A stretch of DNA of 64,000 bases from the human T2T-CHM13v2.0 reference genome, Homo sapiens: assembly GCF_009914755.1 (NCBI RefSeq), contig NC_060944.1. One strand, 5' to 3'. Position 1 is the first letter of the stretch. Each line of letters starts with the position of its first letter. The notes beneath the pieces were generated by a model that saw only the letters and a list, made by a program, of their open reading frames with translations, did no database searches and had not been told where the DNA came from. The position numbers and the translations under genes are program-made. Below, piece after piece: positions 470 to 3,188 of the stretch.

Positions 470-700
470 GAGAGCTCATTATTGAGGAAAAACCCAGCCA
501 AATGAATGTCTGCGGAATGAGTGTTCTAGGCAGTGCAAAGATCCTGAGGTGAGAGCAAAAGAGGTGTGCCACAGGGTTGGAGGAAAGACCCATGGGTGGG
601 AGGAGGGTGAACATGACGGGGAGCACTCAGACTGATGAGACAGGGCTTTGTAGCTCATGGTAAGGAGTTTTAATTTCATTCTCTGTGATAGAAAGCCTTA
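470..700 (-). mobile_element. L2 LINE fragment
   Basis: Degenerate L2 motifs (TGCAAAGATCCTGAGG, GGTAAGGAGTTTTAATTTCATTCT). Confidence 0.55.
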
Positions 701-704
701 CATG

Positions 705-1079
705 TGTAGTAGTCCGTTTTCACAGTTCTATAAAAATACTACCTGAGACTGGGTAATTTATAAAGGAAAGAGATGTAATTGACTCACAGTTCTGCATGGC
801 TGGGTAGGCCTCAGGAAACTTACAGTCATGGCAGAAGGCAAAGGAGAATCAAGTAACTTCTTCATAAGGCAGCAGGAAAAGAGAGTACAAGCGAAAGAGG
901 AACTGCCAAACACTTATAAACCCATCAGATGTTGTGAGAACTCAACTCACTATCATGAGAACAGCATGAAGGAATCCGCCCGCATGATACCATCACCTCC
1001 CACCAGGTACCTGCCTCAACACGTGGAGATTATAATTCCAGGTGATATTTGGGTGGGGCCACAGAACCAAACCATATCA
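705..1079 (-). mobile_element. THE1 (THE1D-like) MaLR solo LTR
   Basis: TGTAGTAGTCCGTTTTCAC...CCTGAGACTGGGTAATTTATAAAG...AACCATATCA matches the reverse complement of the THE1/MST consensus. Confidence 0.9.
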
Positions 1080-1139
1080 TAGGGTTTTAAGTAAATGAGT
1101 GATATTATTTGAGTTAGAGTAGAGAAATATCACACTTCT

Positions 1140-1340
1140 ATAAACAATTACTATATCTCAGGCACTGTATATCCACCTTAGGTCCTTTTCCTTTAATCTT
1201 CACCAATGAATGGGTACAATTATTATCACTTCTCAGATTAGTAAAGTGAGGCTTAGGGAGGAAAAGCAACTTGTTTGGAGTCACATAGTGACTATATGGC
1301 AAATCTGAACCTCAACCCTTGTCATCTGCCTCCAGTTCCT
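1140..1340 (-). mobile_element. MIR SINE
   Basis: Reverse MIR core (AAAGTGAGGCTTAGGGAGG...GTCACATAG). Confidence 0.7.
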
Positions 1341-2428
1341 GGCTCAAAATACTCATTAAAGGCTCATTTTTATTGCCATTGTTTATGATGTTTATTTTTC
1401 TAACCCTTCCAAGAGTGTTTTGTGGATTGCATTATTCTTTTCTTCTCAATTTTATAAATAAAAGAGACTCGCCTCAAAATCACAACTGAAGGAAAAAAAT
1501 AACAAACTTGTAGTTTCCTCTAAAGAACTTCACGGACACCCAGCTCAGAAGAATTTGGCCCGGCCAGGGATGGGGCGGGGAGGGAAGGACTGGCTGCCGC
1601 AATGTTTTGGGTTCGGCCATCCCATTTGTGAGAATTAGGAATGTTCTTTGGACAAAAGATCAAACACAAGCTTACTCCTTTCTATGCTGAGACGTTGCCC
1701 ACTCGCTTCCTCTTTTGTATCTTTCCTGGTAACTCGACTTCAGTTTCTCTGATGGTAAAGAGATGAGATCAGCCACTAGGGGATCGGTCGATGGGATCAG
1801 GTTTCAGTCATCAAAAAATTACGTCAAGTGCTAAGCATGAGTTACCTTCCACTGCCAGTGTCAGCCCAGGACGTGACTGCAGGGCCATCAATCCTGCCTT
1901 CCTTGTCCTTGTAGATGTTAAAATACAGGGTACTCTGGGAATTCATTAGTGGGGGTGTTGCATGGGAAAGGAGGGGCTATGCTCCAGGAAAAGTGGGTAT
2001 AGAGGCAGAGATGTAGCTTTCTAATGCTGTTACCTTGCACATTCTAACTATTAACTGCAGAGACATCTGCTGATTGTTTTCTTTACAAAGCGGGGGAGGG
2101 GGAGAAAATAAGAAAGTTAATTTCAGAGTTGGAAGCAGGTTTAAAATGACCTTCGTCAGTTATAAATATAACATCTACTTACTTTTAACCAGTTTATTTC
2201 CAATTCAATAACTTTTATTGAGTGTTTCCATCATAATAATTGTTTTTAAAAAGTTTACTATTAGAAAGTACTGAAAAGAATGTAGGAAAACAATTTCCTC
2301 CATAGTCCTACTATACAGAGGAAGATCCATTCTGTTTCCTGTCTATCGGCCTCTCTGCTCCTCTTTTAAATACTGAACCCAACTTTTTTATTGTTTCAAA
2401 TGATGTGACTATATTGTACCTATGATTT

Positions 2429-3188
2429 GTGTGATAGGCGTCACACCCAGGAGGTGTGATGGTCCCCACCTGCTGAGATCCCTGTCCTTGTGTGATTTTA
2501 TCCTCTTGAAAGTGGATGGACTTACCCTCCTCTAGTAAACAGAATATGGCAAACATATTGGGATGTCACTTCCAAGATTAGGTTATAAAAAGATGGTGGC
2601 TTCCATCTTAAGTGCACGCACGCTCTCTGTCTCTTTTTTTTTTTTTTTTTTTTTTTTTGAGGTTTCAGGGCATCTTTGGTGCCACAGTAGCTCAAGAAGA
2701 GCCTTTTATTTTATTTTATTTTATTTTATTTTTTTTTATTATACTCTAAGTTTTAGGGTACATGTGCACATTGTGCAGGTTAGTTACATATGTATACATG
2801 TGCCATGCTGGTGCGCTGCACCCACTAATGTGTCATCTAGCATTAGGTATATCTCCCAATGCTGTCTCTTGAATCACTCACGCTGGGGGACAGCCAGTAG
2901 CTGTGGTGTGGGCTATCCTGTGGTTTGGTGAGATACTGAAGGCGTCACTAGGCAGTCCACAAGCCTGCCAGAAATCACTTGCCAAAAACTACATGAGTTA
3001 ACTTAGGAGTGGACTCTTCATTCCCAGTGGCTTGACTGCAACCTGGTGAGAGATTCTGAATCAGATTCACTGAGCTAAGCCCCTTCTAGTTTCCTAAACC
3101 ACAGAAACTGTGAGATAATAAATGTTTGTTGTTGTTAGTTGCTGGATTTTTGAATAATATGTTACACAGCAATTGATAACTAATATAA
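2429..3188 (+). mobile_element. MLT1F-type MaLR solo LTR, interrupted by the L1HS insertion
   Basis: GGGATGTCACTTCCAAGATTAGGTTATAAAA and the 3' end ACAGAAACTGTGAGATAATAAATGTTTG...GATAACTAATA; the LTR sequence resumes after 2870. Confidence 0.8.
2636..2863 (-). mobile_element. L1HS-Ta, 5'-truncated (about 125 bp of 3'UTR), with patterned tail, 45-bp 3' transduction and second poly(A)
   Basis: L1 body 2738-2863 reads GATGACACATTAGTGGG (Ta ACA diagnostic, + strand 2829-2831) and CTTAGAGTAT (G diagnostic, + strand 2746); TSD CTGTCTCTT at 2627-2635 and 2862-2870. Confidence 0.95.

What the first reader, a model, noticed from the sequence alone, without database searches (positions are those of the whole stretch)
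2636..2737. L1 3' transduction: a 45-bp foreign tag between two poly(A) tails that barcodes the source element
Seen, in L1 sense: L1 end, then a patterned tail A9(TAAAA)5 (2737-2704), then the unique sequence GGCTCTTCTTGAGCTACTGTGGCACCAAAGATGCCCTGAAACCTC (2703-2659), then a second pure poly(A), then the TSD. The tag is neither L1 nor MLT1 and lies inside the TSDs. Established: this double-tail structure is the signature of read-through of the L1 poly(A) signal, which copies the donor's 3' flank. Inference: the first tail was inherited from the donor. The tag has no AATAAA, so the AATAAA hexamers in that patterned tail probably directed cleavage about 45 nt downstream. The tag should identify an active full-length source L1 and its sibling insertions, possibly an uncatalogued lineage.
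Basis: partly seen in the sequence, partly recalled or inferred. Interest (0 to 1): 0.85.

Follow-up and report, generated by a model that had tools for sequence, protein, structure and literature searches.

The report
Short L1 copy carrying chr3 tag
This is an ordinary, very short copy of the human jumping gene L1 that dragged along 45 bases from chromosome 3, and a sister copy on the Y chromosome carries the same tag, although the parent element itself is missing from this genome assembly.

Summary
On the minus strand the window holds the last ~124 nt of an L1Hs, a tail A9(TAAAA)5, a 45-nt non-L1 tag and a pure poly(A). All of this lies between two exact copies of a 9-nt target-site duplication, AAGAGACAG.

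The tag occurs exactly three times in the assembly (T2T-CHM13+Y):
- here on chr20;
- on contig C24 (taken to be chrY), again directly behind an L1 end and an A/T-patterned tail, and again followed by poly(A);
- on chr3 at 180,941,525-180,941,569, embedded in unique DNA with no L1, no poly(A) and no young L1 within 10 kb.

The chrY copy is a 5'-inverted, ~2.4-kb truncated L1. Neither tagged copy could be a source. The best reading is a textbook L1 3' transduction from a source L1 that sat just upstream of the tag on chr3 and is absent from this chr3 haplotype (polymorphic or lost).

The nearest AATAAA ends 46 nt before the cleavage point, and the native chr3 sequence starts another AATAAA exactly there.

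This is a known mechanism. The only new item is the donor-site assignment. The published catalogues that could list it are supplements, which I could not open.

The parts
2627..2635 (-). 3' copy of the target-site duplication, AAGAGACAG. Its two leading A's cannot be told from the poly(A).
2636..2658 (-). Second, pure poly(A): 23 A, or 25 counting the two A's shared with the duplication. This is the tail added to the read-through transcript.
2659..2703 (-). 45-nt transduced tag, identical (45 of 45) to G000:C3:180941525-180941569 (+) and to G000:C24:18281513-18281557 (-).
2704..2737 (-). First tail, A9(TAAAA)5. The last TAAAA unit matches native chr3 sequence next to the tag; the rest is donor L1 tail and/or later microsatellite growth. 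It holds six overlapping AATAAA hexamers.
2738..2861 (-). 5'-truncated L1 3' end, 124 nt (up to 2863 if the 2-nt overlap with the duplication is counted). It carries an exact match to the published AC-specific L1Hs primer at 2857..2830.
2862..2870 (-). 5' copy of the target-site duplication, AAGAGACAG.
2400..2626 (.). Left part of the old interspersed repeat that was split by the insertion.
   Evidence: 10 of 19 paralogous loci also match this flank
2871..3160 (.). Right part of the same old repeat.

Best explanation
**What happened.** A human-specific L1 (L1Hs) once sat on chr3 in + orientation, immediately upstream of the sequence that is now the tag. In CHM13 coordinates its poly(A) abutted the A-rich stretch that ends at chr3:180,941,524.

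- Some of its transcripts ran past the element's own weak poly(A) signal and through its A/T-patterned tail.
- They were cleaved and polyadenylated 45 nt into the chr3 flank, at the CA just before a native AATAAA and 8 nt upstream of a T-rich stretch.
- The L1 machinery reverse-transcribed such RNAs at nicked target sites.
- On chr20, in a TSHZ2 intron inside an old repeat, copying stopped after ~124 nt of L1. This gave L1 end - tail - tag - poly(A) between 9-nt duplications.
- On chrY an independent event gave a ~2.4-kb, 5'-inverted copy.
- The source element is absent from the chr3 haplotype in this assembly, so it is a non-reference (polymorphic) or extinct allele.

**Shown:** the anatomy, the duplications, the three tag copies, the empty chr3 site and the dead-on-arrival state of both offspring.

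**Inferred:** the existence and position of the source L1, and which signals set the cleavage site.
For: **One insertion, not several.**
- The layout is exact and is flanked by two exact 9-nt copies of AAGAGACAG.
- The two flanks belong to one old repeat. In 19 paralogous loci, 10 loci gave 11 collinear left/right hit pairs. The window spacing exceeds the paralog spacing by 191-262 nt in 9 of those 11 pairs (the others: 110 and -92; median of all 11 is 215). The expected excess is 235 (226-nt insert + 9-nt duplication). I computed these figures by hand from the coordinates.

**The L1 is young.**
- The published 'AC dinucleotide-specific primer of L1Hs' (passage of PMC3514663) matches 2857..2830 exactly.

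**Where the tag comes from.**
- The tag has exactly 3 copies at up to 3 mismatches, all with 0 mismatches (same three places).
- On chr3 it is continuous with unique sequence on both sides, with no poly(A) after it.
- 745 nt of chr3 sequence downstream of the tag occur nowhere else.

**The chrY sibling is independent.**
- It has the same L1-end/tail/tag junction and the same tag end followed by poly(A), but different flanks and a different L1 length.

**Neither offspring can be a source.**
- The chrY copy has an RVT_1-bearing frame on the strand opposite its tagged 3' end (E 5e-36).
- A 28-nt perfectly complementary overlap sits at the inversion junction.
- It has no 5' part. The chr20 copy is only ~124 nt of L1.

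**Background from the literature.**
- Non-reference donor L1s are common in population and tumour surveys (a non-reference chr6 donor with 21 offspring; methods allow for non-reference polymorphic donors).
Against: - No L1 is seen at the donor site. Within 10 kb either side of the chr3 tag there is only one 474-nt piece that is 75% identical to L1, about 3 kb upstream.
- Only one chr3 haplotype could be examined.
- No canonical or variant poly(A) hexamer lies within 10-40 nt upstream of the cleavage point. The nearest AATAAA ends 46 nt upstream.
- The A/T pattern next to the tag in both offspring (TAAAATAAAA) differs from the CHM13 chr3 allele (A7TAAAA). So the donor haplotype or its tail was not identical to what is seen on chr3 here.
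Confidence: 0.88

Rival explanations
1. **Relay.** The immediate parent of the chr20 copy (and/or the chrY copy) was not the chr3 element. It was a full-length offspring of that element which already carried tail + tag + poly(A) at some third locus absent from this assembly. This is still a 3' transduction lineage, one step longer.
For: - No source is visible anywhere in the assembly, so its location is open.
- Full-length offspring of transducing L1s that could act as new sources are described. LRE3 has at least 20 full-length offspring (passage of PMC5668948).
Against: - Both offspring end at exactly the same base of the tag and carry no second transduced segment.
- A relay element in a new flank would lack the chr3 downstream T-rich sequence. 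It would be expected either to stop at its own signal, or to read into and carry new flank.
Confidence: 0.07
2. **Template-switch chimera.** L1 reverse transcriptase started on a polyadenylated chr3 transcript that ends at the tag. At the A-rich stretch upstream of the tag it jumped to the poly(A) of an L1 RNA. No L1 ever sat on chr3.
For: - The chr3 site is empty.
- The junction lies in an A-rich stretch that could mediate a switch.
- Chimeric L1 insertions with other RNAs are described (listing and abstract of 10.1101/2025.02.02.635956; text not read).
Against: - The same junction occurs in two independent insertions, neither of which could have copied itself. The switch would have to happen twice at the same place, or pass through an unseen competent element.
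- Both share TAAAATAAAA before the tag, which is not the chr3 sequence seen here. That fits an inherited donor tail.
Confidence: 0.03
3. **Two unrelated events, or a DNA-level duplication.** Either a tag+poly(A) retro-fragment inserted first and an L1 fragment landed in it later, or the block was copied between chr20 and chrY as DNA.
For: None specific. It was considered only because there are two poly(A) tracts.
Against: - One pair of exact 9-nt duplications encloses the whole block, and no inner pair is present.
- The composite recurs on chrY with a different L1 length, a 5' inversion and unrelated flanks. This excludes both segmental copying and two-step nesting at each site.
Confidence: 0.01

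Closest known systems
Partnered L1 3' transduction (Moran 1999; Goodier 2000; Pickeral 2000, all recalled; described in the texts read)
   Same: L1 3' end, first A-rich tail, unique non-L1 DNA, second poly(A), duplications around the whole block, and a tag that maps to one other locus and is shared by a sibling.
   Different: The donor locus carries no L1 in this assembly. The transduced piece is short (45 nt). No poly(A) hexamer lies in the usual window upstream of the cleavage point.
Known transduction lineages used as barcodes (LRE3, Chr6:13191033, Chr1:119394974, Xp22.2)
   Same: Same logic: a tag identifies source and offspring.
   Different: Those sources are seen, are full length, and have many offspring. 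This lineage has two offspring in the assembly and an unseen source. None of the main texts I read names a chr3 donor.
The six potential 3' L1 transductions reported on T2T-Y, with no donor found (bioRxiv 10.1101/2022.12.01.518724, passages)
   Same: The chrY sibling found here is a 3' L1 transduction on that same Y assembly. No donor element exists in T2T-CHM13+Y, matching their statement.
   Different: Here the donor site, though not the donor element, can be placed on chr3, because the tag was searched against the whole genome rather than against flanks of full-length L1s.
Twin-priming 5' inversion of L1 (Ostertag and Kazazian 2001, recalled; 5' inversions mentioned)
   Same: The chrY sibling has an inverted 5' segment that abuts the direct 3' segment in L1 coordinates, with a 28-nt overlap.
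   Different: This applies to the sibling only. The chr20 copy is a plain 5' truncation.

Membership tests
L1 3' transduction (partnered) | L1 3' end in sense orientation followed by an A-rich first tail | tested here: met
L1 3' transduction (partnered) | Non-L1 unique sequence after the first tail, ending in a second poly(A) | tested here: met
   (45-nt tag, then 23-25 A)
L1 3' transduction (partnered) | Target-site duplications enclose L1 + tag + both tails | tested here: met
   exact 9-mers at 2627-2635 and 2862-2870; the flanks are collinear in paralogs of the interrupted repeat.
L1 3' transduction (partnered) | The tag maps to a single other genomic locus where it is ordinary flanking DNA | tested here: met
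   (chr3:180,941,525-180,941,569)
L1 3' transduction (partnered) | A full-length L1 lies immediately 5' of the tag at that locus | tested here: inconclusive
   Absent in the one chr3 haplotype available. Other haplotypes cannot be reached with these tools. Non-reference donors are common.
L1 3' transduction (partnered) | A poly(A) signal 10-40 nt upstream of the end of the transduced piece | tested here: not met
   no hexamer in the tag; the nearest AATAAA ends 46 nt upstream. This feature is usual, not obligatory: one search reports it for six of the seven donors analysed there.
L1 3' transduction (partnered) | Independent offspring share the same tag | tested here: met
   (chrY sibling)
L1Hs (human-specific L1) | AC dinucleotide in the 3' UTR targeted by the L1Hs-specific primer | tested here: met
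   primer and its description; exact match at 2830-2857, minus strand. The next base is A, giving ACA. I recall ACA as the Ta-subfamily mark; I did not check this in a paper.
L1 endonuclease-dependent insertion | Nick site resembling TTTT/AA on the strand that primes (consensus recalled) | tested here: inconclusive
   From the chr20 site reads TCTT/GA on the primed strand. That is pyrimidine-rich then purine, but only a partial match.
Twin-priming 5' inversion (chrY sibling only) | Inverted 5' segment adjoining the direct 3' segment in L1 coordinates, with a short overlap or deletion | tested here: met
   both frames read ...LEENLGIT...; RVT_1 on the opposite strand; 28-nt perfect inverted overlap.

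The most novel reading that the evidence does not exclude
The donor is a still-segregating full-length L1Hs at CHM13 chr3:~180.9415 Mb, absent from both the CHM13 and GRCh38 references and not yet in source-element catalogues.

It would be the first donor site assigned to a T2T-Y L1 transduction. That would contradict the published statement that no DNA transduction links the Y with the rest of the genome.

Its read-through transcripts would end at an unusual site, 46 nt past the last AAUAAA and on top of an unused one.
Probability: 0.25. Interest if true: 0.4.

Novelty: new member of a known kind. Interest (0 to 1): 0.22.

Why it matters
As biology this is routine. L1 3' transductions have been catalogued by the hundred, including in this very assembly: 183 highest-confidence L1 3' events (Hoyt et al. 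preprint).

The small gain is practical. A whole-genome search with the tag places the donor site on chr3 even though the donor element is missing. It also links a chr20 and a chrY insertion as siblings. The T2T-Y analysis looked only among full-length L1s and reported no donors.

If a filled chr3 allele still segregates, it is a candidate active L1 worth genotyping. If not, this records an extinct source.

Tried and rejected
**Closed, missing or malformed calls**
The tables that would list this locus could not be read: Hoyt et al. Table S13, T2T-Y Supplementary Table 16, the 1,019-genome Supplementary Tables 19-20, MELT Table S9 and PCAWG Table 5.
- Szak et al. 2003 (PMC156586) and the PMC copy of Hoyt et al. 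are not held.
- Searches were malformed search terms and were corrected.

**Paper searches that found nothing**
- A 25-nt piece of the tag: 0 papers.
- TSHZ2 + LINE-1 + transduction + retrotransposition: 0 papers.
- 3q26 + source element + LINE-1 + transduction: 0 papers.
- 3q26.32 + transductions + retrotransposition: 0 papers.
- The cytoband used in the last two is my own rough estimate of where the chr3 site lies. It was not computed.

**Other dead ends**
- Main texts with no mention of a chr3 donor: PMC9311842 section 18; passages of PMC12350158, 10.1101/179705 and PMC5668948. PMC13192797 passages had only general remarks.
- A search with the whole 761-nt region was swamped by L1 hits, so I repeated it with the right flank alone.
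- I rejected the chrY copy as the source (inverted and truncated).
- I rejected the old L1 piece 3 kb upstream on chr3 as the source (75% identity, not adjacent).
- Internal priming on the native AATAAAA cannot explain 23-25 untemplated A's.
- The chrY target-site duplication could be fixed only approximately: GAAA[G/A]TAACTCA, one mismatch, exact core TAACTCA (read).

Full report
**1. What is in the sequence.** On the minus strand the window reads, 5' to 3':
- flank;
- AAGAGACAG (2870..2862);
- about 124 nt of L1 3' end (2861..2738);
- A9(TAAAA)5 (2737..2704);
- a 45-nt stretch unlike L1 (2703..2659);
- a run of A (2658..2634);
- AAGAGACAG again (2635..2627, its first two A's merging with the run);
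- flank.

One search places the two 9-mers exactly there. It found 3 matches in the 64-kb window, with 0.86 expected by chance. One search finds the 45-mer once in the window and in 0 of 100 shuffles.

**2. It is one insertion.** The sequence on both sides belongs to one old interspersed repeat.
- I took the 19 best paralogous loci for the right flank (L020-L038) and compared both flanks with them.
- Ten of the 19 loci also matched the left flank, giving 11 collinear pairs of hits.
- From the coordinates I computed by hand how much further apart the two hits lie in the window than in the paralog: 191, 110, 210, -92, 215, 256, 262, 211, 244, 239 and 249 nt.
- Nine of the 11 values fall between 191 and 262, and the median of all 11 is 215. 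The expected value is 235 (226-nt insert plus one 9-nt duplication).
- The paralogs are only 70-84% identical and the hits do not reach the junction, so this is supportive, not exact.

Together with the exact duplications, it shows that L1 end, first tail, tag and poly(A) entered in one event.

**3. The L1 piece is young.** A published primer, described as the 'AC dinucleotide-specific primer of L1Hs' (PMC3514663, passage read; the string occurs in 8 papers), matches 2857..2830 exactly. The next base is A, giving ACA. I recall ACA as the Ta-subfamily mark and did not verify this in a paper. The second tail is a pure A-run, which also suggests a recent event; this is an inference.

**4. Where the tag comes from.** The window's genome is held (3.117 Gb, 24 contigs; the window is C20).
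- An 81-nt query around the tag found three places.
- The 45-mer, with up to 3 mismatches allowed, found the same three, all with 0 mismatches. The control pattern read backwards found 0.
- The places are C20 (here), C24:18,281,513-18,281,557 (-) and C3:180,941,525-180,941,569 (+).
- I take C24 to be chrY. It is the 24th of 24 contigs, and I recall its length of 62,460,029 as that of T2T-Y.
- On chr3 the tag runs on into unique sequence on both sides. Upstream is ...TTTTATTTTAAAAAAATAAAA and downstream is AATAAAAGTCTATTTTTACAC... There is no L1 and no poly(A).
- A 901-nt chr3 query reaching 745 nt past the tag matched nothing else except the two tag copies. So no offspring with a longer transduction exists in this assembly.
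- Within 10 kb either side of the chr3 tag the only L1-like DNA is a 474-nt piece of 75% identity about 3 kb upstream.

chr3 is therefore the native locus, and in this haplotype it is unoccupied.

**5. The sibling on chrY.** In L1 sense it reads: L1 3' end, tail A7TA5TA9TA4TA4, the same 45 nt, then A17GA6GA4, then unrelated flank.
- Its L1 end differs from the chr20 copy at one base in the aligned part.
- Further upstream the element is inverted. A 442-codon open frame with a reverse-transcriptase domain (RVT_1, E 5e-36) lies on the opposite strand (L010 1698..3026 +) and ends ...KTIKTLEENLGIT.
- The direct part (minus strand) begins ...LETLEENLGITIQDIG.
- The two parts overlap by 28 perfectly complementary nt (L010 1675-1702 and 2974-3001).
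- This is the pattern known as twin priming (name recalled). The copy is about 1.1 kb direct plus 1.3 kb inverted, with no 5' UTR or ORF1, and beyond it is non-L1 flank.
- Its target-site duplication is roughly GAAA[G/A]TAACTCA. The boundary is uncertain.

Neither this copy nor the 124-nt chr20 copy could have produced the other.

**6. What follows.** Two independent, dead-on-arrival insertions share the same junction of L1 end, patterned tail and chr3 DNA, and the same end point of that DNA. This requires a competent parent in which the L1 was physically followed by the tag. The simplest parent is an L1 inserted on chr3 just upstream of the tag, absent from this haplotype.
- The chr3 site fits. 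The strand opposite ...ATAAAAGGC... reads GCCTTTT/AT, a good endonuclease site (consensus TTTT/AA, recalled). This is an inference.
- Both offspring have TAAAATAAAA next to the tag, where the CHM13 chr3 allele has A7TAAAA. So at least part of the pattern was inherited from the donor's tail or from a different donor haplotype.
- The rest differs between the siblings: five perfect TAAAA units versus an irregular pattern. It therefore changed in the source over time or after insertion.

**7. How the transcript ended.** This remains unexplained.
- The tag holds none of 22 poly(A) hexamers (list recalled).
- Six AATAAA lie in the tail. The last ends 46 nt before the cleavage point.
- For comparison, a survey of donors found signals 10-40 bp upstream for six of the seven donors analysed (PMC9311842 section 18).
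- On chr3 the base after the tag starts a native AATAAA, followed 8 nt later by a T-rich stretch. That hexamer cannot have directed a cut upstream of itself. The T-rich stretch could serve as the downstream element.
- Both offspring end at the same base, so the site is defined, but which signals define it is not shown.
- Priming inside the native AATAAAA is rejected, because 23-25 untemplated A's follow the tag.

**8. What is in print.**
- 3' transduction and its use as a barcode are standard (texts read).
- Hoyt et al. (preprint, passages) catalogued transductions in this assembly: 183 highest-confidence L1 3' events.
- The T2T-Y paper (preprint, passages) reports six potential 3' L1 transductions on this Y. 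[quoted passage not shown]
- The chrY sibling here may be one of the six.
- My result agrees that no donor element exists in the assembly, and adds that a donor site can be named.
- Searches for the tag, for TSHZ2 with L1 transduction, and for a 3q26 source found no paper. The cytoband is my own estimate.
- Whether the lineage is uncatalogued therefore stays open.

**9. Rivals.**
- A relay through an unseen full-length tagged offspring is possible. It is disfavoured because both copies stop at the same base and carry no second transduced piece.
- A template-switch chimera would have to arise twice with the same junction.
- Nested independent insertions or DNA-level copying are contradicted by the single pair of duplications and by the different flanks and L1 lengths.

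**10. Verdict.** This is a correctly read, textbook L1 3' transduction in a TSHZ2 intron. The new elements are modest: the donor site on chr3 is empty in this assembly, there is a twin-primed sibling on chrY, and the distance from poly(A) signal to cleavage point is odd. The decisive test is a look at the chr3 site in other human haplotypes, which these tools cannot do.

Noticed in passing
L010 (G000:C24:18281000-18290500), 484-3001, minus strand: The chrY sibling is a 5'-inverted L1: about 1.1 kb direct plus 1.3 kb inverted, with a 28-nt perfect overlap at the inversion junction (L010 1675-1702 / 2974-3001). It has an interrupted poly(A), A17GA6GA4. Its target-site duplication has one mismatch.
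   Followed up: yes
L003 1557-1590 (G000:C3:180,941,570 onward): The native chr3 sequence begins an AATAAA exactly at the base where both offspring switch to poly(A), followed by a T-rich stretch. The read-through transcripts were cut before this hexamer, not after it.
   Followed up: partly
L017 6441-6907 (G000:C3:~180,938,040-180,938,506): An old L1 fragment, 474 nt and 75% identical to the chrY L1 3' part, lies about 3 kb upstream of the tag. It is not adjacent and is too diverged to be the donor.
   Followed up: partly
L010 5900-6500 (minus-strand reading): Sequence that looks like Alu elements (my recognition; no tool named them), with a long T-run, lies upstream of the chrY L1. It is unrelated to the finding.
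   Followed up: no
L024 (G000:C5:96196816-96199928): This paralog locus holds two copies of the old repeat that was interrupted on chr20, in opposite orientations (two collinear hit pairs).
   Followed up: no
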